64,000 bases of DNA, from positions 15,603 to 79,602 of the IMG/VR virus record IMGVR_UViG_3300023108_000014; one strand, given 5' to 3'. This DNA comes from a virus. This document shows positions 11,907 through 56,472 of the stretch, piece after piece. The position numbers and the translations under genes were made by a program. The first letter of the stretch is position 1. The number at the start of each line of letters is the position of its first letter. The notes below the pieces were generated by a model. It saw only the letters and a list, made by a program, of their open reading frames with translations, was not told the origin of the DNA and did no database searches.

Positions 11907-14222
11907 ATGATTCAAGTTACCAAGCGAGACGGACGAAAAGAACCACTAGACATTGAAAAACTACATAAGGTTGTTTTTAATGCATGTAAAGATACAACAG
12001 GTGTTAGTCCGAGCGAGGTAGAAATCAAAAGTCAAATCCAATTTTTTAATGGTATGAAGACAAGTGAGATTCAAGAAACACTTATCAAAGCAGCAGCAGA
12101 TCTTATTTCAGAAGAAACACCGAACTACCAATATGTTGGTGGTAGATTGATTAACTATCATCTTCGCAAAGAAGTATACGGAGGCTATGAGCCATGCACA
12201 GTGGTTGAATTAGTAGAGCGTAATACAGAAGCAGGATTTTATGATCCTGAATTGCTTGGAACGTATGACGATGAAGAATGGAAAAAGATTGAAAACTTTG
12301 TAAAACACGAGCGTGATGAAAACTTAACATATGTTGCTATGGAACAGTTACGTGGCAAATATCTTTGCCAAAACAGAGTGACTGGTGAAATTTTTGAAAC
12401 ACCACAAATGTGTTATGTTCTTATTGCAGCAAGTTTGTTCGCTAACTATCCAAAAGAAACAAGATTAAAATGGGTAAAGGATTATTATGATGCTATTAGT
12501 TTACACGATATCAGTTTGCCTACTCCTGTTATGGCTGGTGTCCGCACTCCCCAAAGACAGTTCTCAAGTTGTGTACTCATTGAAACTGATGACAGTCTCG
12601 ATAGCATTAATGCTACCAGTAGTAGTATTGTTAAGTATGTAAGTCAAAAAGCAGGCATTGGCATCGGAGGCGGTAGTATCCGTGCTATTGGCAGCCCAAT
12701 ACGTAAAGGTGATGCATATCACACAGGTATTATTCCATTCTACAAAATGTTCCAAGCAGCAACAAAGTCATGCTCACAAGGTGGCGTGCGTGGCGGAGCA
12801 GCAACAATCTATTATCCAATTTGGCATTTAGAAGTAGAAGAGTTACTTGTACTAAAAAACAACAAAGGCACAGAAGAAAATCGTGTGCGTCATATGGACT
12901 ATGGTGTGCAGTTTAACAAACTAATGTATGAAAGACTTGTCAGTGGCGGTGACATTACACTATTCTCGCCTAGTGATGTACCAGGCTTATACGATGCGTT
13001 CTTTGCGGACCAAGACAAGTTCCGTGAACTATATGAAACAGCAGAAAGAAATACAAGACTACGTAAGAAAACTATTCCTGCTTCTACACTTTTTGCATTG
13101 TTTATGGAGGAGCGCAAAAGCACTGGACGTATCTACCTACAAAACGTAGACAATGCAAATGACCACGGCTCATTCTTGCCAGACGTTGCACCTATTAGAC
13201 AGAGTAACCTGTGTGCAGAAATTGACTTGCCAACTAAGCCGCTAAAGGATTTAAACGATCCAGAAGGTGAAATCAGCCTATGCACATTGAGTGCAATCAA
13301 TTGGGGCAACGTGCGCACACCAGCAGACTTTGAAAAGGCTTGTACGTTGGCAGTGCGTGGTTTAGATGCACTATTAAGCTATCAAAACTATCCAATTATT
13401 GCTGCACAACTTTCAACAGAAAAACGCCGTCCGCTAGGTGTTGGTATTATTAACTTTGCTTACTGGCTTGCAAAAAATGGGCTCAACTACCAAGACATTG
13501 ACAGCGACGGACTTGCACTAGTAGATGAATATGCAGAAGCATGGAGTTACTATCTAATCAAAGCCAGTGCTGATATTGCAGCAGAACAGGGTGCATGTCC
13601 TGGCACACCAGAAACAAAATACGGACAGGGTATTACACCTAACCAAACATACAAAAAAGATGTAGACGATCTAGTGAAACACAAAGAGCGTATGGATTGG
13701 AAAGGATTGCGTAAGCAACTAAAAGATACTGGCATTCGAAACTCAACACTAATGGCTCTAATGCCTTCGGAAACAAGTGCGCAGATTGCAAATGCTACAA
13801 ACGGCATTGAACCACCACGTGCCTATATTAGTGTAAAACAATCAAAGCATGGTGTGTTGAAACAGGTTGTACCAGAGTTCAAGCGTCTCAAGAACAAGTA
13901 TGATTTACTATGGGATCAACAGTCACCAGAAGGCTATTTAAAAATTATGGCAGTGCTACAAAAGTATATTGATCAAGGTATTTCAGTTAACACAAGTTAT
14001 AACCCTGTGTTCTACGAAGATGAAAAGATTCCTATGTCAACAATGCTACAACATATGCTTATGTTTTACAAGTATGGCGGCAAACAACTTTACTATTTCA
14101 ATACAAATGATGGGCAGGGAGAGTTAGATATTTCCAAACTTGTTGTAGAACAAGAAGAACCAGATGCAAACGGTTATACCTTAGTTGAAGATGACGAGTA
14201 CTGTGAGACATGCGTGATTTAG
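11907..14222 (+). CDS. nrdA: Class Ia ribonucleotide reductase alpha subunit
   Basis: ATP-cone VTKRDG, QFSSCVL, SNLCAEI, MPSETS, LYY, C-terminal CETC; start moved to ATG 11907 after AAGGA. Confidence 0.97.
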   Translation: MIQVTKRDGRKEPLDIEKLHKVVFNACKDTTGVSPSEVEIKSQIQFFNGMKTSEIQETLIKAAADLISEETPNYQYVGGRLINYHLRKEVYGGYEPCTVVELVERNTEAGFYDPELLGTYDDEEWKKIENFVKHERDENLTYVAMEQLRGKYLCQNRVTGEIFETPQMCYVLIAASLFANYPKETRLKWVKDYYDAISLHDISLPTPVMAGVRTPQRQFSSCVLIETDDSLDSINATSSSIVKYVSQKAGIGIGGGSIRAIGSPIRKGDAYHTGIIPFYKMFQAATKSCSQGGVRGGAATIYYPIWHLEVEELLVLKNNKGTEENRVRHMDYGVQFNKLMYERLVSGGDITLFSPSDVPGLYDAFFADQDKFRELYETAERNTRLRKKTIPASTLFALFMEERKSTGRIYLQNVDNANDHGSFLPDVAPIRQSNLCAEIDLPTKPLKDLNDPEGEISLCTLSAINWGNVRTPADFEKACTLAVRGLDALLSYQNYPIIAAQLSTEKRRPLGVGIINFAYWLAKNGLNYQDIDSDGLALVDEYAEAWSYYLIKASADIAAEQGACPGTPETKYGQGITPNQTYKKDVDDLVKHKERMDWKGLRKQLKDTGIRNSTLMALMPSETSAQIANATNGIEPPRAYISVKQSKHGVLKQVVPEFKRLKNKYDLLWDQQSPEGYLKIMAVLQKYIDQGISVNTSYNPVFYEDEKIPMSTMLQHMLMFYKYGGKQLYYFNTNDGQGELDISKLVVEQEEPDANGYTLVEDDEYCETCVI

Positions 14223-14851
14223 AAAACATTAAGCATATGAAAATCTGTCATCGTAATTTCGATGATGCTGAAGTTTCAGATCATTTTATAGATTATCTTG
14301 CAGAGTGTATAAAATGGGCAAACATGAAAGATGGCTATAATTTTGTAAAAGTGATCTTTACTAAAAATAAAGATTTAATAAAAAATATTTATAGCCTATC
14401 AGGTCACCCTGATGAACAAACACATGTAAGAGAGTACAACGAGTTTTTTAAAGAACAAACTGATCCTAAAGCAGTATTTTTAGGTAATCCGCAGTTAGAT
14501 GCTCCATGTGTTGCAATCCTATGCCAAAATACTGCTACAGATAAGCGCAAGTATTGGAATGATGATGAAGAATATGAACAATTCAAAAACATCGCTATAG
14601 GAACAATTACAGGTATTATAAACTTTGAAGCAAATAGAATTGGTCTAAGAACAGGTAATTGTATTTGTTTAGATCACCAAGGATTAGCAGATTTATTATA
14701 TGGATATACTAATAAAAAATTCAATCCTATGATGGCAATCGGGATAGGACATCCCAATAAAAGATTAAATCCAAGGCAACACCCAGTTCATAAGAAAAAA
14801 TTTTACTCTCTCGAGAAACAATCCAAACCTTTAGAGATAATTAAAGTATAG
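14210..14851 (+). CDS. Nitroreductase-fold protein
   Basis: K-C-HRNF, NPQLDAP, GLRTGNCIC and IGIGHP; paralogous to 30757 and 46643. Confidence 0.65.
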   Translation: MRDLENIKHMKICHRNFDDAEVSDHFIDYLAECIKWANMKDGYNFVKVIFTKNKDLIKNIYSLSGHPDEQTHVREYNEFFKEQTDPKAVFLGNPQLDAPCVAILCQNTATDKRKYWNDDEEYEQFKNIAIGTITGIINFEANRIGLRTGNCICLDHQGLADLLYGYTNKKFNPMMAIGIGHPNKRLNPRQHPVHKKKFYSLEKQSKPLEIIKV

Positions 14852-14852
14852 G

Positions 14853-14880
14853 TTGACAAATAACCTAAAATCGTTATAAT
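14853..14880 (+). promoter_or_regulatory. Sigma70-type promoter for nrdB
   Basis: TTGACA-N16-TATAAT. Confidence 0.75.
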
Positions 14881-14901
14881 AATAAAAAAGGATAGACAGA
14901 C

Positions 14902-16029
14902 ATGAGCGTTTTTGACACAACTAACCGTGCCGACCATACACAGGTTCTAGCATTTTTAGATCCTACAGGCGGCCCAACTATTCAACGGTACGACACGTTG
15001 AAGTATAAACAATTTGATAATCTTACAGATAAACAGTTGGGTTTCTTTTGGCGTCCGGAAGAAGTTGATATCTATAAAGATGCAAAAGACTTCAAAGGCT
15101 TGACTGACTTTGAACAGCATATCTTTACTTCAAATCTAAAACGCCAAATTCTATTAGACTCAGTACAAGGGAGAGCACCAGTAGAAGCATTTGCTCCGAT
15201 TGTATCCTTACCGGAGTTAGAAAACTGGATCCAAACATGGACCTTTTCAGAAACTATTCACTCACGTTCATATACACATATCATCCGTAATGTTTACAGC
15301 AATCCAAGTAAGATTTTTGATGAATTAATGAACATCGAAGAGATTGTTGATTGCGCCGGCGACATTTCAAAGTATTATGATGAACTGATTGAAACAAGTA
15401 TGTATTACAACTTGTTGGGTGAAGGCACACATACAGTAAATGGTAAAAAGGTTGTGGTAGATCTTTACGAATTAAAGAAAAGTTTGTGGCTTACATTGAT
15501 GAGCGTGAACATCCTTGAAGGTGTGCGTTTCTATGTATCATTTGCATGTAGTTGGGCATTTGCTGAACTTAAGAAGATGGAAGGCAATGCCAAGATCATT
15601 AAACTAATCGCACGTGATGAGAACCTGCACCTAGCAAGCACACAAATGTTGTTAAAGATCCTTAAAAAAGATGATCCTGACTTTGCTAAAATTGCAGAAG
15701 AAACAGAAGAAGAATGCATTCAGATGTTTGTAGACGCAGTTGATCAAGAAAAAGCATGGGCAGAATATTTGTTTAAAGATGGTTCAATGATTGGACTTAA
15801 CACACAACTACTAAGCGACTACATTGAATTTATTTGCACACGCAGAATGACAAACGTTGCGTTGAAGTCACCTTACACAATTAAAACAAACCCGCTACCT
15901 TGGACACAGAAGTGGATTAGTGGTGCAGACGTTCAAGTTGCTCCACAAGAAACAGAAATCACAAGTTACATCAACGGTGGTACAAAACAAGATGTAACAG
16001 AAGATACATTCAAAGGATTTTCGCTATGA
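14902..16029 (+). CDS. nrdB: Class Ia ribonucleotide reductase beta subunit
   Basis: FFWRPEEVD, ETIHSRSY, EGVRFYVSF, RDENLH and VAPQETEITSY. Confidence 0.97.
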   Translation: MSVFDTTNRADHTQVLAFLDPTGGPTIQRYDTLKYKQFDNLTDKQLGFFWRPEEVDIYKDAKDFKGLTDFEQHIFTSNLKRQILLDSVQGRAPVEAFAPIVSLPELENWIQTWTFSETIHSRSYTHIIRNVYSNPSKIFDELMNIEEIVDCAGDISKYYDELIETSMYYNLLGEGTHTVNGKKVVVDLYELKKSLWLTLMSVNILEGVRFYVSFACSWAFAELKKMEGNAKIIKLIARDENLHLASTQMLLKILKKDDPDFAKIAEETEEECIQMFVDAVDQEKAWAEYLFKDGSMIGLNTQLLSDYIEFICTRRMTNVALKSPYTIKTNPLPWTQKWISGADVQVAPQETEITSYINGGTKQDVTEDTFKGFSL

Positions 16030-19466: not shown

Positions 19467-20036
19467 ATGAATACAATTTTCATACATGGCGCTACAGCAA
19501 GCGAAAGAAGTTTTGCTTTTATTCAAAAAGAAATAAAAGTAAAAGATCCTATTTTTCTGAATTACGATAAAGAAACAACTGCTGAAGAAAATCTACAAGA
19601 AATGAAACAAATCATTAGGGAAAACAAGGGGCCTTTTAGTATCATTGCGCATAGTTTAGGCGGAGTATATGCAACTTACTTGCAAAATGAATTTGATATT
19701 AAAGGCGTTGTAAGTCTTGCTACACCGTTCAATGGCAGCGAGATAGCAACTTGGGGTGGTTTACTAAATCCAGGATATCAATTATTTAGAGATATCACGC
19801 CACACAGTGCATTTATAAAAGGCAGTAGAAAACTTTCAATAAAAGTTCCTTGGTTACAAATTGTTACTACAACAGGTGATGTTCCTTGGTTATCAGGAAA
19901 GAATGATGGTATTGTTACACGACATTCAATGACTTGCAGAGGCGATGTAGAATACACAACAATTGATAGAAACCATTACGAAATTGTTTTAAGTAAAAGA
20001 GTGGTTGACACTATCAAATATAGACTGTATAAATAA
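19467..20036 (+). CDS. Alpha/beta hydrolase
   Basis: FIHGA, AHSLGG nucleophile elbow, NDGIV, NH. Confidence 0.85.
   Translation: MNTIFIHGATASERSFAFIQKEIKVKDPIFLNYDKETTAEENLQEMKQIIRENKGPFSIIAHSLGGVYATYLQNEFDIKGVVSLATPFNGSEIATWGGLLNPGYQLFRDITPHSAFIKGSRKLSIKVPWLQIVTTTGDVPWLSGKNDGIVTRHSMTCRGDVEYTTIDRNHYEIVLSKRVVDTIKYRLYK
20005..20035 (+). promoter_or_regulatory. Composite sigma70/late promoter for tmRNA
   Basis: TTGACA-N17-TATAAA, with the -10 embedded in TATAAATA. Confidence 0.7.
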
Positions 20037-20040
20037 AAGG

Positions 20041-20251
20041 TAGGCGTTACAAAGCGTATTTGGACCCCGGGGCGGTACCGGGCGCCTCCACCATAAACAC
20101 TTTGACACAGAGTTTTTATGATGGGGGCGAAACAGGTTTCGACAGGTAGGCAAGTTTACAAAACACAACTGCAAACGATAACTTTGCACCTTCTGGTTAC
20201 GCTCTAGCAGCATAATTAAGGGGGCGGGTACTGCCTAGCAACAGAAGTGCC
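20041..20251 (+). ncRNA. ssrA: Circularly permuted two-piece tmRNA (alphaproteobacterial type); tag ANDNFAPSGYALAA at 20171-20215
   Basis: Acceptor piece CCCGG-GGCGGTA-CCGGG-CGCCTCC-ACCA (ends 20093); intervening hairpin; GGGGGCG at 20123; tag ORF ending LAA-stop; ends approximate. Confidence 0.93.
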
Positions 20252-20270
20252 ATAACTTATAGTATGCTTA

Positions 20271-26693: not shown

Positions 26694-28877
26694 ATGGCAT
26701 TAGGTTTTTTAGTATTTTTTACTGCACTAGCAATTTCAGCAGTAGCAATTTATTATAGCATCGCAGGGTTAGTCGCAATATTTGCGGCTGCCGCTATACC
26801 TATTATGGTAATGGGCGGTGCACTTGAAATTGGCAAACTGGTTACAGCGGTTTGGCTACATAGGTATTGGTCACAAGCAAAGTGGTGGCTCAGGACCTAT
26901 CTTGCTCTTGCAGTTGTTGTTCTTATGTTTATTACTAGTATGGGTATTTTTGGCTTCTTGTCAAAAGCACATATCGAACAAACAAGTGCAAGTATTGAAA
27001 GTGTAGAACAAGTAGAAAGACTAGAAACTGAAATTGCAAGACAAGAATCGCTAGTTGTTCGTGCTGAACAAAAGATACAGAAAGCAGAGGAAAGCACAGG
27101 CAATCAAAATGCAGACATTCAATCTCAAATTGATAAAGAACAAGAACGTATAGACAGTGCTTATCAAAGAATTCAACCTGCCATAGATGAACAGAATGCT
27201 ATTATACAGACACAACTTACTATATTAGAAGATAGAGTTGCTGTTTATGAAGATGAAATAAAAAGTCTTGATACTGAGTTAACAAGACTTAACAGTGTTG
27301 TTTCAGATTTAAGAAGTGAAATTGAAGGTACAAGTGTTGCTAGTATTGAAGAACAAGTACAGCCATATATTGACCAAATAGCACAATTAGATGAAGATTT
27401 GGAACGAATCAACACACAAGCAAATGAATATGAACAACGTATTTCTAATTTAGAAATTGACACAAGTGCAATTGAAAGTTTAAAAACTAGAATTGCAGCA
27501 ATAGAAGAATCTATTGTTGTAACAACGAATAAATTACAAAGTACAGAGCGTGATAAAATTCGTGAAGGACAAGCAGTCATTGGTGTAACAGATGATGGAG
27601 TGTTCGGCGGTAATACTAGACGTGCATTAACTGCATGGGTAGAAGCACAACAAGATCGCATTGCACAATTACAGTCACAAGAAACAGATTTAAGAGCACA
27701 AGCAACTCAAACACTAGATAACGAAAGAAATCGTTTGACAGATCTAGTTAAAGATTTGCGTGGAACACAGACAGATAGTATTAACACACGTAAGCAAAAC
27801 TTATTAGATGCAATTGATAGTATAAGAGCAAGTGCAATTGAAGATAGTAAAACTGCTAAACAAGATATACAGAATAAGATTGATACAGTTTTAAACACAG
27901 ATATTCCTGCTAATAGGAGCGCAAGGCAAACAGCACAAGAGCAAATCACTGCCTTGCGTCAAGCAGATGATCCTCGTATTAATGCAGCACGAGATACAAT
28001 TAAACAACTTCGTGAAGGTGCAGATGCACAAATTGCTGCAAGTAACGATTTAATACAGAGGTTAAGAGATAGAATTAGAGTCGATGGTGGTGCAGACATA
28101 GATGCTATTATTGACGAACAGACACAGCGTATTCGAGATGCAAATGCATTGATTGATGAAATGACTGAACAAAAATATGCCATAGAGGCAGAGTACAGAA
28201 AGCTAGAAGCAGAAGTAGGTCCTATCAAATACATTGCAGAATTTATCTATGAAGACGCAGACAGAGATGTATTAGAAGAGGCAGTGCGTTGGGTTATCAT
28301 CACAATTATTTTTGTATTTGATCCGCTTGCCGTTTTATTGCTAATCGCAAGCCAATACACTTTTGAATTTCACAGAAAACAAAAACCAAACGATAAGCAA
28401 TATTGGAAAGACTACGATCGTGCTAGGGCAGAGCGCATGGTAGCAAATAAGGGATTTAAAGTTGACAGCGGAGGAGAAGTTGAAACAACTATTAGCGAAC
28501 ATACCACTGGAGCCACCGATTCGGGAAGAGACTCTTCCGAAAGAGTGGTTGTGGCCGAAGAAGAAACGACACCAATAGAATTAGAGCCTGAAGCAAAAGA
28601 AGATGAAACTAATAATGAAAGCACTGAATCTAAAAAAGATACAGAAGCAGTAATTCAAAAAAAAAGAACTGAAAGACTAGCATTACTAGAAACTGATCTA
28701 GGTTATCAAAATAGCAAACAAGAATGGAAAAAACTTCATCCAGATCAGACAATTAAATTTTGGAAAGACCAATATATAAAAGGTAAGATTGATGAACTTC
28801 CTTGGGAGCAATCTTACACTCAAAATGAGGAACAAAGTGCAAATTCAATTTGGCAGCGTATAAAAGACAATGAGTGA
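26694..28877 (+). CDS. Membrane-anchored long coiled-coil protein with central peptidoglycan-binding-like motif
   Basis: 3 N-terminal TM helices, ~430-aa coiled coil, DGVFGGNTRRAL, TM VFDPLAV. Confidence 0.7.
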   Translation: MALGFLVFFTALAISAVAIYYSIAGLVAIFAAAAIPIMVMGGALEIGKLVTAVWLHRYWSQAKWWLRTYLALAVVVLMFITSMGIFGFLSKAHIEQTSASIESVEQVERLETEIARQESLVVRAEQKIQKAEESTGNQNADIQSQIDKEQERIDSAYQRIQPAIDEQNAIIQTQLTILEDRVAVYEDEIKSLDTELTRLNSVVSDLRSEIEGTSVASIEEQVQPYIDQIAQLDEDLERINTQANEYEQRISNLEIDTSAIESLKTRIAAIEESIVVTTNKLQSTERDKIREGQAVIGVTDDGVFGGNTRRALTAWVEAQQDRIAQLQSQETDLRAQATQTLDNERNRLTDLVKDLRGTQTDSINTRKQNLLDAIDSIRASAIEDSKTAKQDIQNKIDTVLNTDIPANRSARQTAQEQITALRQADDPRINAARDTIKQLREGADAQIAASNDLIQRLRDRIRVDGGADIDAIIDEQTQRIRDANALIDEMTEQKYAIEAEYRKLEAEVGPIKYIAEFIYEDADRDVLEEAVRWVIITIIFVFDPLAVLLLIASQYTFEFHRKQKPNDKQYWKDYDRARAERMVANKGFKVDSGGEVETTISEHTTGATDSGRDSSERVVVAEEETTPIELEPEAKEDETNNESTESKKDTEAVIQKKRTERLALLETDLGYQNSKQEWKKLHPDQTIKFWKDQYIKGKIDELPWEQSYTQNEEQSANSIWQRIKDNE

Positions 28878-43747: not shown

Positions 43748-45793
43748 ATGAAACGTTTAATATTTTCACCTTTATGGAGTATACTAGTCTTAGGTATTCT
43801 AAGTTATGTATTTTATATAAATCCTAATTTTGTAGAAAGTCTAAGACTAAGATATTTTGACCAACTTATAATAAATCAACAACCAGTTGAAAACAACATC
43901 TACACAGTAGACATAGATGAAGCAACTATAAATGCATACGGACAATGGCCATTTCCAAGAGGTGACTATGCAGAACTTATAAACGACTTGTACAATCGTG
44001 GTGCAGGTTTAGTTGTTTTCAATGTGCTTATGAGTGAGCCAGATCGTTCAGGCGAAGATCAAATACTAGCAGAAACAATGCAGCAACTTCCTGTTATTGT
44101 TACTATGTTAGGTGCGGAGGAGAATAAAAATGAACCAATTAATCCTGGTGCTACTATCGTTAACAGTGATTACATTTATACTATTCCTAGTGTTCCAGGA
44201 ATCATTGCCAATATCAACGATATCGAAAATTCAGCAGTTGGATCAGGCATTACAAACAGTTGGCCAGAAATAGATGGTGTAACAAGACGTATTCCGTTAG
44301 TAGTAGAAAGCGGAGGCACATTGTATCCAAATGTTACAATGGAAGTTCTGCGTGTATTAGCAGGCGATCCTTCATTCCAAATCAAACTATCTCCTATGGG
44401 TGTAGACAAATTGCGCATACCACAGTTTGGTATTATACAAACAAGCCCTACAGGAGAAGTATGGATAGACTGGAGTCAACGTAGCAAACGTTACAGCGCA
44501 GTAGACTTACCAGATGATTTTGCTGGCGGTATAGTATTTGTAGGACCAACAGCAGCAGGTGTAACACAGCCACTGGCAACAGCAGCAGGCAGTGTATTCC
44601 CGCATCAAATACAAGCAGCGATGCTTGGAACAGTTTTTAATGAATCAAATATAAGCAGACATCCTGACGCAAAACAATGGGCTGAACTCGCAGCATTGAT
44701 AGGTGCAGGTATTCTGTTAATCGCACTCGCCCGATGGACATATGTAGGTATAGCCTTTTTTATTATGTCAGTAGGCGGCTTTATTGGAGTAAGTATCTAT
44801 GTATTCAATACACAAAACATTCTTATTGATGGCGCTACTATCAGTGCTTTCCTCTTGCTCGTGGGTCTCAAACGATACGTGCTTAAATTCCTCGACGAGT
44901 TCCTGCAAAAGCAAGCCATTAAAAAACAATTCGAAGGATACGCCAGCCCAGCAGTGGTACGAATACTACAGGAATCTCCAGAACTTGTTAAGCAGGGCAT
45001 AAAGAAAGATGTGAGTATTGTATTTTCAGACTTGCGTGGCTTTACACCACTAGGTGAAAGTTTTGGCGACGATGTGCAAGGACTTACAAGAATAATGAAT
45101 GGCTATATGGATGCCATTACAGAACCTGTGCTAGACGCAGACGGAATGATTATAAAGTATATCGGCGATGCTAGTATGCACATACACAATGCGCCTATTG
45201 ATGATCCGCATCATCCTAAGACAGCAGTACAGTGTGGCTTAGACATGCTTAAAGCAGTGGAGAAGTTTAATGAAGAAGTTATTATACCTGATGGCCGTCC
45301 TCCTGTTGGTATGGGCGCTGGCATCAACACAGGGTTGGGGTACCTTGGTGAGATGGGAAGTACTAAACGTCATTCATATGATGTCCTTGGAGACGCTGTC
45401 AGCACCGCAGCAAGAGTAGAAAGCAAGTGTAAAGAATACGGATGCTTGTTACTAGTAGGCGAAGCAACCTATGAAGAAACAAAAACAGATTTCTTCTACC
45501 TCAAAGTAGACGACTTGCAAGTCAAAGGCAAAAGTGTAGGACTTAAAATTTATACAGTGTTAGATGATACTGCTCCTGCTTGGCGCACAGCACAGAAGAA
45601 ACACGAACAAATGCACGAAGATTATCGTGCGCAAAGATTTGATGATGCTATAGACAAATGTCGTTTGTTATATACACACTTTGATCACAAGATGGAAGGC
45701 TACTACGATATGTGGATTGAACGTTGTGAGTATATGAAAACACAAGATTTACCAGAGGATTGGAACGGAGTTTTCGTCGCTACTTCGAAGTAG
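43748..45793 (+). CDS. CHASE2-domain class III adenylate/guanylate cyclase
   Basis: CHASE2 (VDIDE...GQWPFPR, DGVTRRIPL), 3 TM helices, FSDLRGFT, KYIGDA, GAGINTG, YDVLGDAVSTAARVE, VKGK; K and D specificity residues favour ATP. Confidence 0.92.
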   Translation: MKRLIFSPLWSILVLGILSYVFYINPNFVESLRLRYFDQLIINQQPVENNIYTVDIDEATINAYGQWPFPRGDYAELINDLYNRGAGLVVFNVLMSEPDRSGEDQILAETMQQLPVIVTMLGAEENKNEPINPGATIVNSDYIYTIPSVPGIIANINDIENSAVGSGITNSWPEIDGVTRRIPLVVESGGTLYPNVTMEVLRVLAGDPSFQIKLSPMGVDKLRIPQFGIIQTSPTGEVWIDWSQRSKRYSAVDLPDDFAGGIVFVGPTAAGVTQPLATAAGSVFPHQIQAAMLGTVFNESNISRHPDAKQWAELAALIGAGILLIALARWTYVGIAFFIMSVGGFIGVSIYVFNTQNILIDGATISAFLLLVGLKRYVLKFLDEFLQKQAIKKQFEGYASPAVVRILQESPELVKQGIKKDVSIVFSDLRGFTPLGESFGDDVQGLTRIMNGYMDAITEPVLDADGMIIKYIGDASMHIHNAPIDDPHHPKTAVQCGLDMLKAVEKFNEEVIIPDGRPPVGMGAGINTGLGYLGEMGSTKRHSYDVLGDAVSTAARVESKCKEYGCLLLVGEATYEETKTDFFYLKVDDLQVKGKSVGLKIYTVLDDTAPAWRTAQKKHEQMHEDYRAQRFDDAIDKCRLLYTHFDHKMEGYYDMWIERCEYMKTQDLPEDWNGVFVATSK

Positions 45794-54724: not shown

Positions 54725-54784
54725 ATGATCAAGACTAACAAAATATGTATAATATATTGGCCACCTAAAGGGGGTATGTCTTGA
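54725..54784 (+). CDS. Putative attenuator leader peptide MIKTNKICIIYWPPKGGMS (19 aa)
   Basis: GAAAGAG RBS; codons ATA-TGT-ATA-ATA-TAT-TGG-CCA-CCT; 3' end overlaps the antiterminator. Confidence 0.65.
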   Translation: MIKTNKICIIYWPPKGGMS

Positions 54785-54811
54785 CGTGACTTTTTAAAAA
54801 GTTATTTCAAC

Positions 54812-54846
54812 AGCCCCTAGCACTAATAATGTTAGGGGCTTTTTTT
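54812..54846 (+). terminator. Intrinsic terminator (attenuator), mutually exclusive with antiterminator 54769-54818
   Basis: AGCCCCTAGCA-ctaataa-TGTTAGGGGCT plus T6. Confidence 0.85.
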
Positions 54847-54938: not shown

Positions 54939-55023
54939 GCCGGTGCGGTACAGTAGGAGAGGTACGCTGGTCTCCAAAACCAGTTCCTAGGATTAGCGAG
55001 TTCGAATCTCGCCACCGGTGCCA
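54939..55023 (+). tRNA. tRNA-Trp(CCA), atypical (12-nt variable region)
   Basis: GCCGGTG/CACCGGT, CTGGT-CTCCAAA-ACCAG, GCGAG-TTCGAAT-CTCGC, G73-CCA. Confidence 0.85.
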
Positions 55024-55039
55024 AACAAAAAGGAACATT

Positions 55040-55207
55040 ATGCGCAGAGGAAATAAACCTGAAGCAGAAGATTATATAAAGGTAAGGTTAGAGTTTCTTC
55101 ACGAAGAAAAGAAAAAGAACGATAACGAAACTGCTCATCTAGTATTAGATAAAGCAATTTATGAATTAAGTATTGTTCTTGATCTTTTGACAAGAAACGG
55201 GGATTAG
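55040..55207 (+). CDS. Small hypothetical protein (55 aa) between tRNAs, not in ORF track
   Basis: AAGGA RBS; MRRGNKPEAEDYIKVRLEFL...; stop lies in the 5' end of tRNA-Pro. Confidence 0.5.
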   Translation: MRRGNKPEAEDYIKVRLEFLHEEKKKNDNETAHLVLDKAIYELSIVLDLLTRNGD

Positions 55208-55275
55208 GAAAGTCTGGTTAATCCGTCTGCTTTGGGAGCAGAAGATCGCAAGTTCGAATCTTGCATCCCCGACCA
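55198..55275 (+). tRNA. tRNA-Pro(TGG)
   Basis: CGGGGAT/ATCCCCG, TCTGC-TTTGGGA-GCAGA, CCA. Confidence 0.93.
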
Positions 55276-55280
55276 AATAT

Positions 55281-55374
55281 AGTCCCGTAGTTTAGCGGTA
55301 AAACACCTGGCTTATATCCAGCATCGTCTCCAGATTAGAGAGCGTCCCCGGTTCGAATCCGGGCGGGACTACCA
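55281..55374 (+). tRNA. tRNA-Ile(TAT) with long variable arm
   Basis: AGTCCCG/CGGGACT, CTGG-CTTATAT-CCAG, ~24-nt V region, CCCGG-TTCGAAT-CCGGG, A73-CCA. Confidence 0.82.
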
Positions 55375-55395: not shown

Positions 55396-56472
55396 ATGTT
55401 CGAAACTGCTCACGTAGAAATAACTAGTAGGTGTAATGCACAGTGTCCAGGATGTGCAAGAGTAGACGAAGATGATTTTACTCTACAACCTATTCTTAAA
55501 GAAAACAAACTAGACTGGACACTGGAAGACTTCAAAAGAATTTTTCCTCCGCATCTTGTTCAAGACAAGAAGTTTCAATTTGGTGTCGTTGTAGACGAAC
55601 CGTTCATGAATCCTAATTTAGCAGACATTGTAGAGTACGCATTACGTAGTGGTGCAGAAGAAGTTTATATCTATACAAATGGTGGAGCAGGTACAAGTCT
55701 TGTTTGGGAACGAATTGCTGCTATGAGCAAACGATTTTATCCTAAATTGTTTGTAGAGTTTAGTATAGATGGCCACAAGGAAACAAATCATATCTATAGA
55801 AGATTTGTTAAATGGAAAAACGTACAACGCAATATTAATTTATATTGCACTATTGCTAGACATGACGGCAAGGTAAATGGACGTTGGGTTTATCTAGTAT
55901 TTGACCACAACGAAAAGGATATTAAGAACGCAGAAGCATTTGCTGAAACACTAGGTATTGATTTCCTGATTAGAGCAAACACAAGAAACACAGACTCTTG
56001 GTTTGTTGATGATGAAAAAGATTCTTACGAAGTAAAACCGACTACAAATGAAAACTTTCAACACAGTCAATTAGAAGAAAAACGTAAGTTTGACAAAAAG
56101 CCTAAGACAAATTTATCATTAGAAGATATAGAAAGTATAGGTTGTTATCATTTTCACGAAAAAGAAATTTTTGTAGATTGGAATCAAAATGTATTTCCAT
56201 GCTGTTGGTGGGGTTCATCTTACTACTACGATGGCAAAGACAAGAAAGAAAAAATTTATAAACCTATTGAAGATAAGTACGGTAGCAATTGGTGCTCTTT
56301 GAAATACAATAGCCTTGAAGAAATTCTACAAGGGTTTTACAAAGAAGATCTTGCAAAAGGTTGGAGTACAACTAGCGAATTTAATCACGGCGAAATGTGT
56401 TTTAAAAAGTGCGGCGATTGTGGTATTAGACAAAAATATGAATGGTTTGATTCAGATGGAAACAGTATATAA
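55396..56472 (+). CDS. Radical SAM/SPASM-like protein
   Basis: CNAQCPGC, EPFMNP, YTNGG, FSIDG, VFPCC, CFKKC. Confidence 0.88.
   Translation: MFETAHVEITSRCNAQCPGCARVDEDDFTLQPILKENKLDWTLEDFKRIFPPHLVQDKKFQFGVVVDEPFMNPNLADIVEYALRSGAEEVYIYTNGGAGTSLVWERIAAMSKRFYPKLFVEFSIDGHKETNHIYRRFVKWKNVQRNINLYCTIARHDGKVNGRWVYLVFDHNEKDIKNAEAFAETLGIDFLIRANTRNTDSWFVDDEKDSYEVKPTTNENFQHSQLEEKRKFDKKPKTNLSLEDIESIGCYHFHEKEIFVDWNQNVFPCCWWGSSYYYDGKDKKEKIYKPIEDKYGSNWCSLKYNSLEEILQGFYKEDLAKGWSTTSEFNHGEMCFKKCGDCGIRQKYEWFDSDGNSI

What the first reader, a model, noticed from the sequence alone, without database searches (positions are those of the whole stretch)
55281..55374. tRNA-Ile(UAU) with an extra arm whose 7-nt loop carries a second Ile triplet (GAU)
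SEEN: the anticodon loop is CU-UAU-AU (55311-55317) on a 4-bp stem with a C.C mismatch on top. A ~24-nt variable region forms TCTC-CAGATTA-GAGA, with GAT centred in the 7-nt loop (55333-55335). KNOWN: most bacteria decode AUA with lysidine-modified tRNA-Ile(CAU) made by TilS. UAU tRNAs are rare, tRNA-Ile is normally class I, and IleRS reads the GAU anticodon. INFERENCE: this could be a TilS-independent AUA decoder whose extra arm aids IleRS charging or resists tRNases. The loop lacks U33 and A37, so the GAU may be coincidental.
Basis: partly seen in the sequence, partly recalled or inferred. Interest (0 to 1): 0.7.

Follow-up and report, generated by a model that had tools for sequence, protein, structure and literature searches.

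The report
Five-armed phage isoleucine tRNA (UAU)
This phage gene encodes a real transfer RNA for the isoleucine codon AUA with an extra, strictly conserved hairpin shaped like a second anticodon arm; over 160 phage contigs share the design, I found no paper describing it, and what the arm does is untested.

Summary
Window 55281-55374 is a 94-nt tRNA gene (ARAGORN Ile-UAU; Rfam tRNA 59.3 bits). It has a class-I, tRNA-Ile-like body: A1-U72, A73, C4-G69, U12-A23 and an encoded CCA. A 19-nt insertion in the variable loop forms a fifth arm.

The design is a family. I found 163 gene copies in 162 loci, nearly all uncultured viral contigs. Five cultured Lactobacillus phages and one rhizobial chromosome also carry it. 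Every copy found through the arm has anticodon UAU.

The arm's 4-bp stem shows compensatory changes. Its 7-nt loop is CAGAUUA in 93 of 98 distinct genes. The G and A of the loop, and a C-G pair at the anticodon-stem 29-41 equivalent, never vary. GAU is lost in only two Lactobacillus phages. Ordinary long variable arms in the same contigs mostly have 3-5-nt loops.

AUA makes up 28% of the phage's isoleucine codons and substitutes like AUU/AUC, not like Leu codons.

Most likely this is a working AUA decoder that does not need the lysidine enzyme TilS. The arm is selected, but its partner is unknown. An IleRS "handle" is attractive but unproven (about 0.25).

This scan met the same design earlier on other DNA (e1-4045950, e1-1192678).

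The parts
55281..55374 (+). Whole tRNA-Ile(UAU) gene, 94 nt including the encoded CCA (55372-55374) and discriminator A73 (55371)
   Evidence: ARAGORN; Rfam RF00005 at 59.3 bits; cloverleaf fold
55281..55287 (+). Acceptor stem 5' strand AGUCCCG. It pairs with 55364-55370 and includes A1-U72 and C4-G69.
   Evidence: Sequence. All 7 pairs covary in the family and 100% of cells are paired. C4-G69 is present in 62 of 70 members.
55290..55304 (+). D arm: 4-bp stem GUUU/AAAC (includes U12-A23) and 7-nt loop AGCGGUA with G18 G19. This is class-I type.
   Evidence: Position 15 covaries with position 48 in 70 of 70 members (A-U 46, G-C 24).
55306..55322 (+). Anticodon arm CCUGG-CUUAUAU-CCAGC: C27.C43 mismatch, U33, anticodon UAU (55313-55315), A37
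   Evidence: C27.C43 occurs in 63 of 70 members and C.U in 5. C28-G42 is invariant.
55323..55346 (+). 24-nt variable region AUCGUCUCCAGAUUAGAGAGCGUC. It equals the 5-nt loop AU|GUC with a 19-nt insertion between positions 45 and 46.
   Evidence: A class-I phage tRNA-Ile(UAU) with the same anticodon arm has the V loop AUGUC (L025).
55326..55342 (+). Fifth arm, 17 nt: G.G closing mismatch, 4-bp stem UCUC/GAGA, 7-nt loop CAGAUUA (55331-55337) with GAU at 55333-55335
   Evidence: The four stem pairs are paired in every cell with letters on both sides, and three of them change on both sides. The third pair from the top is C-G in 69 of 69. The outermost position is never a standard pair.
55347..55363 (+). 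T arm CCCGG-UUCGAAU-CCGGG
   Evidence: Four of its five pairs covary.
54725..54846 (+). Upstream context of the tRNA operon. A 19-codon leader ORF (54725-54784) reads M I K T N K I C I I Y W P P K G G M S and has three AUA, one UGG and one CCA codon. A hairpin plus T-run terminator follows (about 54812-54846). Downstream lie tRNA-Trp (54939-55023), tRNA-Pro (55198-55275) and this tRNA.
   Evidence: Read directly. The attenuator reading comes from scan notes and was not tested here.

Best explanation
This is a working phage elongator tRNA that reads the codon AUA as isoleucine with a genomically encoded UAU anticodon, so it does not need the host lysidine enzyme TilS. It supplies a codon that the AT-rich phage uses heavily.

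It is built on an ordinary class-I, tRNA-Ile-type body. A 19-nt insertion between positions 45 and 46 adds a fifth arm. The arm is not a generic long variable arm. It is a 17-nt hairpin the size of an anticodon arm (4 bp plus a closing mismatch, 7-nt loop), and its loop sequence and one stem pair are held constant while the rest of the stem drifts by compensatory change. It therefore acts as a sequence-specific recognition element.

Shown here: the gene, the fold, the family, the covariation, the exclusive link to UAU in viral contigs, and the Ile-like behaviour of AUA codons. Inferred: charging by host IleRS (about 0.8) and an unmodified U34.

For the arm's partner my first choice is IleRS. 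The arm displays G34, A35, U36, A38 and C29-G41, which are IleRS determinants of the anticodon arm. The true anticodon has U in place of the preferred G or lysidine at position 34. I give that specific step only about 0.25.
For: Gene and fold:
- ARAGORN and Rfam both call it a tRNA.
- All five helices are supported on 70 distinct members: 92% of cells paired against 73% in shuffles, and 21 of 26 pairs change on both sides.
- The tertiary Levitt pair 15-48 covaries in 70 of 70, so the core folds as a normal tRNA with the arm as an insertion.

Ile-type features (identity set from PMC9976931):
- In 106 distinct genes: A73 in 99 and an encoded CCA in 99.
- In 70 aligned members: C4-G69 in 62, U12-A23 in 68, U33 and A37 in all.

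Family:
- There are 163 copies in 162 loci.
- All 126 hits to the arm's 17-mer have the anticodon loop YUUAUAN.
- A scan keyed on the D arm alone found no UAU member without the arm.

The arm:
- The loop is CAGAUUA in 93 of 98 distinct genes, and the 29-41-equivalent pair is C-G in 98 of 98.
- G and A of the loop are invariant, and U follows in 68 of 70.
- Ser, Leu and Tyr variable arms in the same loci mostly have 3-5-nt loops. A 7-nt loop occurs in 1 of 99 Ser, 3 of 131 Leu and 0 of 21 Tyr arms, against 80 of 100 here.

Decoding:
- AUA is 20 per 1000 codons and 28% of Ile codons.
- In homologous genes of related contigs AUA aligns with AUU, AUA or AUC in 58% of cases, the same as AUU does. 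It aligns with Leu codons in about 12%.
- The operon leader holds three AUA codons.
- Contigs from RNA libraries span the gene with the arm intact.

Literature:
- Unmodified U34 reads AUA well and AUG weakly. IleRS variants differ in how well they accept UAU (PMC3575796, PMC3919564).
Against: - No charging, modification or decoding data exist for any member.
- From memory, and not checkable here: Tomikawa 2018 (J Biochem) reported that a Lactobacillus plantarum tRNA-Ile(UAU) is expressed but not charged by its IleRS. If that RNA belongs to this family it argues against simple IleRS charging.
- Against the IleRS-handle step: the arm's loop lacks U33 and A37, and t6A37 is a strong determinant for bacterial IleRS.
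- IleRS is a class I enzyme, towards which the variable region normally points to the solvent.
- Two Lactobacillus phages have GAA or GAC in the loop.
- Other class-I tRNAs in these phage contigs also carry small variable-arm hairpins. A general pressure unrelated to IleRS may therefore favour such arms.
- The RNA evidence consists of assembled contigs that could include carried-over DNA.
Confidence: 0.55

Rival explanations
1. The arm is a shield or antideterminant. The tRNA is charged through its normal features. The extra arm, together with the C27.C43 mismatch, keeps unwanted host factors off. It could block U34-modifying enzymes whose products would widen reading to AUG, or block tRNA-cleaving defence nucleases or non-cognate enzymes that approach from the variable-loop side.
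For: - Unmodified U34 is what restricts UAU tRNAs to AUA (PMC3919564).
- The variable region faces away from class I synthetases, so an arm there is tolerated (established structural knowledge).
- Many other class-I isoacceptors in these phage contigs (Trp, Cys, Lys, Asn, Pro, Gly, Thr) also have added variable-arm hairpins, which suggests a general phage-side pressure.
- The non-Watson-Crick 27-43 position is conserved in 68 of 70 members.
Against: - A steric shield does not need an invariant 7-nt loop or an invariant C-G pair.
- The other phage tRNAs use short hairpins, mostly capped with GNRA-type loops, and not this motif.
- No nuclease or modification enzyme with this specificity is identified.
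Confidence: 0.22
2. The arm is the docking site of another partner: a phage-encoded protein, a ribosomal or translation-factor contact, or an RNA. That partner would tune the use or processing of this one tRNA.
For: The conservation is sequence-specific while the stem covaries. The loop differs more in Lactobacillus phages (CAGAUGG, UAGAAAA, CGGACAG) than among marine phages, as expected if partners differ between lineages.
Against: - The family spans very different carriers: marine myovirus-like contigs, Herelleviridae of Lactobacillus and a rhizobial chromosome. A shared phage protein is therefore unlikely.
- The motif CCAGATTAG occurs nowhere else in the window.
- No conserved neighbouring gene was seen. 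Neighbours here are a radical SAM gene, and in two of the Lactobacillus phages (Semele, 3-521) HNH endonuclease genes.
Confidence: 0.13
3. The arm is a tolerated historical insertion. It could be a duplicated or captured tRNA-Ile(GAU) anticodon arm, now kept only because it contributes to folding stability and with no specific partner.
For: The hairpin GUCUC-CAGAUUA-GAGAG resembles real phage tRNA-Ile(GAU) anticodon arms such as CUCAC-CUGAUUA-GUGAG. One of these lies next to the UAU gene in L088. The insertion sits exactly between positions 45 and 46 of an otherwise normal AUGUC loop.
Against: Neutral sequence would not keep a 7-nt loop identical across genes whose acceptor, T and arm stems have all diverged. 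The arm is never lost among UAU members found through the D arm.
Confidence: 0.07
4. It is not an isoleucine tRNA in practice. It could be a class-II-like tRNA mischarged with Leu or Ser, as nematode nev-tRNA-Ile(UAU) and bacterial allo-tRNA(UAU) are. It could also be a tRNA-like RNA that is not used in translation, or an RNA whose insertion is cut out after transcription.
For: - V-arm tRNAs with a UAU anticodon are charged with Leu in vitro in nematodes (PMC3333845, PMC4300185).
- Most allo-tRNA(UAU) species appear not to be used for translation (PMC5389517).
- From memory, an uncharged L. plantarum tRNA-Ile(UAU) has been reported.
Against: - The body is class I: a 4-bp D stem and a 7-nt D loop, with A73 rather than G73, a 7/5 rather than 8/4 acceptor/T arrangement, and U11-A24 rather than C11-G24.
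- AUA codons substitute like Ile codons, not Leu, Ser or Met codons.
- U33, A37 and CCA are conserved.
- RNA-library contigs show no joint that removes the arm.
- No bacterial mechanism is known for removing a 19-nt variable-loop hairpin.
Confidence: 0.06

Closest known systems
Bacterial tRNA-Ile(UAU) ('tRNA-Ile3') of Mycoplasma mobile, Bifidobacterium and Neorickettsia, and the Bacillus subtilis tilS-bypass suppressor (PMC3575796, PMC3919564, PMC8450103)
   Same: A genomically encoded UAU anticodon reads AUA without lysidine or TilS. It has an Ile-type acceptor and discriminator. The problems to solve are the same: IleRS acceptance of U34 and avoidance of AUG.
   Different: As far as I know (not checked here) those are ordinary class-I tRNAs with a short variable loop. 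This family always carries a 19-nt fifth arm and a conserved C27.C43 mismatch. It is overwhelmingly phage-borne, and its one bacterial carrier examined also has a TilS-type gene.
Class II tRNAs (bacterial tRNA-Ser, tRNA-Leu, tRNA-Tyr)
   Same: A base-paired arm emerges from the variable region.
   Different: Class II tRNAs have a different D arm. Their arm loops are mostly 3-5 nt, and I know of no conserved arm-loop sequence in them (measured loop lengths only). Here the body is class I, and the arm is a 4-bp stem with a 7-nt loop of fixed sequence.
Nematode nev-tRNA-Ile(UAU) (PMC3333845, PMC4300185) and bacterial allo-tRNA(UAU) (PMC5389517)
   Same: A UAU anticodon is combined with a long variable arm.
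   Different: Those are Leu-like or Ser/Sec-like class II bodies that acquired a foreign anticodon (allo-tRNAs: 8/4 or 9/3, G73 or U73). They are mischarged or apparently unused. Here an Ile-like class-I 7/5 body with A73 acquired an arm, and AUA stays isoleucine.
Viral tRNA-like structures with displaced anticodon mimics (for example the brome mosaic virus TLS with TyrRS, PMC11791061)
   Same: They are a precedent for a synthetase engaging an anticodon-like hairpin that is not in the canonical position.
   Different: Those are 3'-UTR elements of plant RNA viruses and do not decode. This is a bona fide decoding tRNA with a true anticodon arm as well.

Membership tests
Bacterial elongator tRNA-Ile (IleRS identity set of E. 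coli, as listed in PMC9976931) | Discriminator A73 | tested here: met
   A at 55371; A73 in 99 of 106 distinct members.
Bacterial elongator tRNA-Ile (IleRS identity set of E. coli, as listed in PMC9976931) | Anticodon A35, U36 and A37 (the site of t6A) | tested here: met
   The loop is CUUAUAU. U33, U34, A35, U36 and A37 are invariant in 70 of 70 members. The t6A modification itself cannot be tested.
Bacterial elongator tRNA-Ile (IleRS identity set of E. coli, as listed in PMC9976931) | G34 or lysidine-34 at the wobble position | tested here: not met
   U34 in the true anticodon. A G lies at the equivalent place of the fifth arm's loop in 70 of 70 members.
Bacterial elongator tRNA-Ile (IleRS identity set of E. 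coli, as listed in PMC9976931) | Stem determinants C4-G69, U12-A23 and C29-G41 | tested here: inconclusive
   C4-G69 and U12-A23 are present in the window and in 62 and 68 of 70 members. The 29-41 pair is U-A in the window's anticodon stem (C-G in 52 of 70 members), but it is C-G at the equivalent pair of the fifth arm in 69 of 69.
Bacterial elongator tRNA-Ile (IleRS identity set of E. coli, as listed in PMC9976931) | A38 | tested here: not met
   U38 in the window. The family has C 48, U 13, A 8 and G 1. The fifth arm's loop ends in A in 66 of 70.
Bacterial elongator tRNA-Ile (IleRS identity set of E. coli, as listed in PMC9976931) | Aminoacylation with isoleucine | not testable with these tools
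   Indirect evidence only: AUA codons behave as Ile codons in substitution patterns.
Class II tRNA (Ser, Leu, Tyr) | Long base-paired variable arm | tested here: met
   24-nt variable region with a covarying 4-bp stem.
Class II tRNA (Ser, Leu, Tyr) | Class II core (3-bp D stem with an enlarged D loop) and a short arm loop | tested here: not met
   4-bp D stem and 7-nt D loop. The arm loop is 7 nt, against mostly 3-5 nt in Ser, Leu and Tyr tRNAs of the same loci.
allo-tRNA (PMC5389517) | 8/4 or 9/3 acceptor/T branch, G73 or U73, Sec-like D arm | tested here: not met
   7/5 branch and A73 with an ordinary D arm.
nev-tRNA-Ile(UAU) of nematodes (PMC3333845) | Leu-type class II body with a UAU anticodon | tested here: not met
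   The UAU anticodon is met, but the body is class I and Ile-like. The carriers are phages, not nematodes.
Intron-containing tRNA gene | The insertion is removed from the mature RNA, and sits at a canonical intron site such as 37/38 | tested here: inconclusive
   The insertion lies between positions 45 and 46, not in the anticodon loop. RNA-library contigs keep it and show no joints, but contigs cannot exclude a processed minor form.

The most novel reading that the evidence does not exclude
A 'two-headed' tRNA. The fifth arm is a non-decoding copy of the tRNA-Ile(GAU) anticodon arm. It carries G34, A35, U36, A38 and C29-G41, but lacks U33 and A37, so the ribosome and the t6A enzymes ignore it. 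Host IleRS reads this arm as the identity signal, and the neighbouring UAU arm does the decoding. Identity and decoding would then be split between two arms of one tRNA. This would let phages deliver an AUA decoder that needs neither TilS nor an IleRS adapted to U34. The weak C27.C43 and G.G closing positions may allow the two arms to exchange places in the junction.
Probability: 0.25. Interest if true: 0.9.

Novelty: new variant of a known kind. Interest (0 to 1): 0.62.

Why it matters
How to read AUA as isoleucine without reading AUG is a classic problem of the genetic code. Bacteria normally solve it with lysidine made by the essential enzyme TilS. Here a large and widespread group of phage genes solves it with a plain UAU anticodon and always adds the same anticodon-arm-like hairpin.

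If the arm is an identity handle, it would be the first natural tRNA in which recognition by the synthetase and decoding are assigned to separate arms. That would offer a portable way to build orthogonal or TilS-independent AUA decoders. If the arm is a shield, it points to a host activity against U34 tRNAs or phage tRNAs that is not yet described.

Cultured Lactobacillus phages carry the design, so the question can be tested at the bench now.

Tried and rejected
- Genome-wide pattern scan GGTAAAACACCNNNNTTATA over bacterial and archaeal genomes: 118 of 120 rows were chance matches in coding DNA. Only L217 (Allomesorhizobium) and L304 (a 2.9-kb contig in a Flavobacteriales bin, probably phage) were real.
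- BLAST of the gene against plasmids: no match.
- BLAST in 301 genomes of the Allomesorhizobium order: only that genome matched. In 401 Bacilli genomes: none. These are samples, and blastn is weak on 90-nt tRNAs, so I write 'not found in those searched'.
- I could not reach a Lactobacillus plantarum or L. casei chromosome to see whether their published tRNA-Ile(UAU) genes have this arm. Tomikawa 2018 and Uesugi 2022 are not held.
- Other copies of the hairpin motif in the window: none (one exact match, the tRNA itself).
- Excision of the arm: no joints in four metatranscriptome runs, but these are contigs only.
- Leu, Ser or Met recoding of AUA: rejected by codon substitution profiles.
- Pairing of the arm's loop with the anticodon loop or T loop: inspected by eye, with no convincing complementarity.
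- The folding-energy z-score is -1.12 and not significant.
- Seven literature searches found no description of a tRNA-Ile(UAU) with a long variable arm in phages or bacteria. The library lacks most subscription journals.

Full report
**The object.** Window 55281-55374 (+) is called tRNA-Ile(tat) by ARAGORN. It matches Rfam's tRNA model end to end at 59.3 bits, with about 20 extra nucleotides placed in the variable region. From the sequence the parts are as follows.
- Acceptor stem AGUCCCG/CGGGACU (A1-U72, C4-G69), then U8 A9.
- A 4-bp D stem GUUU/AAAC with the 7-nt loop AGCGGUA, then A26.
- Anticodon arm CCUGG-CUUAUAU-CCAGC, with a C27.C43 mismatch, U33, UAU and A37.
- A 24-nt variable region AUCGUCUCCAGAUUAGAGAGCGUC.
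- T arm CCCGG-UUCGAAU-CCGGG, then A73 and an encoded CCA.

The minimum-free-energy fold is this cloverleaf plus a hairpin UCUC-CAGAUUA-GAGA. The gene is the last of a cluster of six tRNAs (Ser-GCU, Thr-UGU, Leu-UAG, Trp-CCA, Pro-UGG, Ile-UAU). The cluster lies in a 79.6-kb fragment of an uncultured virus record. That fragment is AT-rich (36-39% G+C), has nearly all long ORFs on one strand (58 of 59), and carries phage-type ribonucleotide reductase, ClpP and structural genes.

**It is a family.** I ran three exact-pattern scans of the viral contig collection.
- The 17-nt anticodon arm gave 60 loci.
All 126 occurrences carry the anticodon loop YUUAUAN.
- A D-arm pattern that says nothing about the variable region gave 167 occurrences. 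Of these, 117 have the identical arm core. Most of the rest are members with altered arm stems or unrelated tRNAs with other anticodons. No UAU member lacked the arm.

ARAGORN on all loci finds 163 long tRNA-Ile(tat) genes in 162 loci, with 100 distinct well-parsed sequences.

Outside uncultured contigs the design occurs in these places.
- Five cultured Lactobacillus Herelleviridae phages carry it: ENFP1, 3-521, Semele, Lpa804 and LpeD. ENFP1, 3-521 and Semele annotate it as plain 'tRNA-Ile'; Lpa804 and LpeD leave it unannotated.
- One chromosomal copy lies in Allomesorhizobium camelthorni, among ordinary housekeeping genes (ABC transporter, DoxX, epimerase, BacA, QueG, MepA).
- That genome was the only hit among 301 genomes of its order, and it also has a TilS-type gene.
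- 401 Bacilli genomes gave no hit, and plasmids gave none.

**Structure and selection.** I aligned 70 distinct members and counted the pairs of the five-helix structure.
- 92% of cells are standard pairs, against 73% in shuffles. 21 of 26 pairs change on both sides. Sliding the partners by one to three columns collapses the signal.
- The acceptor and T stems vary freely and always compensate.
- The arm's four stem pairs are paired in every sequence. Three of them show changes on both sides (12, 21 and 3 sequences). The pair third from the top is C-G in 69 of 69.
- The arm's outermost position is never a standard pair (G.G 60, G.A 8). The top of the anticodon stem is likewise non-standard in 68 of 70 (C.C 63, C.U 5).
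- Position 15 in the D loop covaries perfectly with the base just before the T stem (A-U 46, G-C 24). This is the Levitt pair. It shows that the core folds like a normal tRNA and that the arm is an insertion between positions 45 and 46.
- A class-I phage tRNA-Ile(UAU) with the same anticodon arm has exactly the uninterrupted loop AUGUC (L025).

**The arm's loop.** It is CAGAUUA in 93 of 98 distinct genes. The variants seen are UAGAUGG, UAGAUUA, CGGAUUA, CAGAUGG (ENFP1), UAGAAAA (Semele) and CGGACAG (3-521).
- The third and fourth loop bases, G and A, are therefore invariant.
- The fifth base is U in 68 of 70.
- The second is always a purine, never the U of a U-turn.
- The sixth is rarely a purine.

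In anticodon-arm numbering the hairpin shows G34, A35, U36, A38 and C29-G41. All of these belong to the E. coli IleRS identity set (PMC9976931). It lacks U33 and A37. Its 5+7+5 size is that of an anticodon arm. Ser, Leu and Tyr variable arms in the same loci have mostly 3-5-nt loops, with a 7-nt loop in only 1 of 99, 3 of 131 and 0 of 21. Real phage tRNA-Ile(GAU) genes with the anticodon loop CUGAUUA exist. One lies next to the UAU gene in L088, with the arm CUCAC-CUGAUUA-GUGAG against GUCUC-CAGAUUA-GAGAG here. The two Lactobacillus exceptions show that GAU is not absolute.

**What the tRNA does.** AUA is frequent in the window: 307 codons, 20 per 1000, and 28% of Ile codons. The six phage tRNAs match codons the phage favours (ACA, CUA, AGU/AGC, CCA/CCU, UGG, AUA). 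In tblastn alignments of window proteins to related viral loci, AUA aligns with AUU, AUA or AUC in 58% of cases, with Val codons in about 13%, with Leu codons in about 12% and with AUG in 3%. This is the same profile as AUU. UUA and CUA align mainly with Leu codons. So AUA means isoleucine in these phages, and a Leu- or Ser-charging tRNA of the nev-tRNA or allo-tRNA kind is unlikely. The body is also not class II: 4-bp D stem, A73, 7/5 branch.

The operon is preceded by a 19-codon ORF with three AUA, one UGG and one CCA codon, followed by a terminator. Scan notes read this as an attenuator. I did not test that, but it fits a decoding role. Contigs from four salt-marsh metatranscriptome runs cover the gene. 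Two span it with no difference and no gap, and contigs of sister genes with the same arm are present too. No joint removes the arm. This evidence is weak, because contigs hide rare forms and DNA can be carried over.

**Mechanism.** The shown facts are the gene, the fold, the family, selection on the arm, the exclusive tie to UAU in viral contigs, and AUA read as Ile. It is inferred that host IleRS charges the tRNA and that U34 stays unmodified.

Published work shows that unmodified U34 reads AUA strongly and AUG weakly. It also shows that tRNA context matters, and that IleRS enzymes with Trp at the wobble-sensing site are expected to accept UAU poorly while Arg-type enzymes accept it (PMC3575796, PMC3919564). 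A phage tRNA that must work in many hosts therefore faces two problems: being charged, and staying AUA-specific. The arm and the C27.C43 mismatch are the two conserved peculiarities, and they plausibly answer these problems.

An invariant loop with an invariant C-G pair next to freely covarying pairs argues for sequence-specific recognition rather than bulk. The match of those invariant positions to IleRS determinants makes IleRS my first candidate (about 0.25). Three points count against it: the absence of U33 and A37, the usual solvent-facing position of the variable region in class I synthetase complexes, and the two loop exceptions.

A shield or antideterminant role (about 0.22) is supported by the many other phage tRNAs in these contigs that have gained small variable-arm hairpins. 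The remaining options are another partner (0.13), a merely structural legacy (0.07), and a role that is not Ile or not translational (0.06).

**Known relatives and novelty.** tRNA-Ile(UAU) is known from a few bacteria and from a B. subtilis suppressor. Long variable arms are known from class II tRNAs. UAU with a long arm is known from nematode nev-tRNAs and from allo-tRNAs, both on foreign bodies. None of these matches a class-I Ile body with an anticodon-arm-like fifth arm, and seven literature searches found no description. The cultured phage records call it simply tRNA-Ile.

From memory, Tomikawa 2018 and Uesugi 2022 describe an uncharged 'tRNA-Ile(UAU)-like RNA' in L. plantarum. I could not obtain the sequence. 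If it is a member, experimental data already exist and bear against simple charging.

This scan has met the same design before on other DNA (e1-4045950 and e1-1192678). Later checks noted there kept the observation and priced the IleRS reading at 42/100 and 13/100. They also reported exceptions to the UAU tie in bacteria, which I could not test. In my viral sample the tie is complete.

I rate it a new variant of a known kind, with a minority chance of a genuinely new principle.

Noticed in passing
window 54939-55023: The tRNA-Trp(CCA) is 85 nt, with a 12-nt variable region UUCCUAGGAUUA, a G1.U72 first pair and C8. Rfam scores it 45 bits. Other viral loci have tRNA-Trp genes with clear variable-arm hairpins (L066, L140, L169, L003).
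   Followed up: partly
loci L007, L018, L024, L028, L032, L037, L057, L080, L131, L168, L175, L190, L195: Many normally class-I isoacceptors in these phage contigs (Cys, Lys, Asn, Pro, Gly, Glu, Thr, Met) carry short variable-arm hairpins, often capped by GNRA-type loops. Variable-arm gain looks like a general habit of these phage tRNAs.
   Followed up: no
L078, L142, L107: These are class-II-like tRNAs of 100-102 nt with G73 and an enlarged anticodon loop, which ARAGORN reads as 'atc' or 'tta'. They may be Ser-type ochre suppressors or recoding tRNAs.
   Followed up: no
L088 277-352, L106 1612-1687, L080 1900-1974, L153 1641-1715: Phage tRNA-Ile(GAU) genes have the anticodon loop CUGAUUA, that is U37 instead of the near-universal A37. 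In L088 the gene lies directly beside the five-armed UAU gene.
   Followed up: partly
window 54725-54846: A 19-codon leader ORF with AUA x3, UGG and CCA is followed by an 8-bp hairpin plus T7 terminator, upstream of tRNA-Trp, Pro and Ile(UAU). Scan notes already flag it as an attenuator candidate.
   Followed up: no
G001:C48:7892-7938 (L339): A decayed copy of the 3' half of the five-armed tRNA (arm plus T arm) sits on another contig of the Allomesorhizobium genome. It may be the scar of an element that used the tRNA gene as an attachment site.
   Followed up: no
window 11907-16029 versus 43748-45793: AUA is almost absent from the ribonucleotide reductase genes (1 in 771 codons, 0 in 375). It is abundant in accessory genes (25 in the CHASE2 cyclase, 18 in the 727-aa ORF at 26694). 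This suggests expression-class-specific codon use.
   Followed up: no
window 55396-56472; L333 330-491; L335 324-493: A radical SAM gene starts 22 nt after the tRNA in the window. In Lactobacillus phages Semele and 3-521 an HNH endonuclease gene follows the same tRNA.
   Followed up: no
window 20001-20257: Rfam finds a phage-borne alphaproteobacterial-type (permuted, two-piece) tmRNA at 84.6 bits.
   Followed up: no
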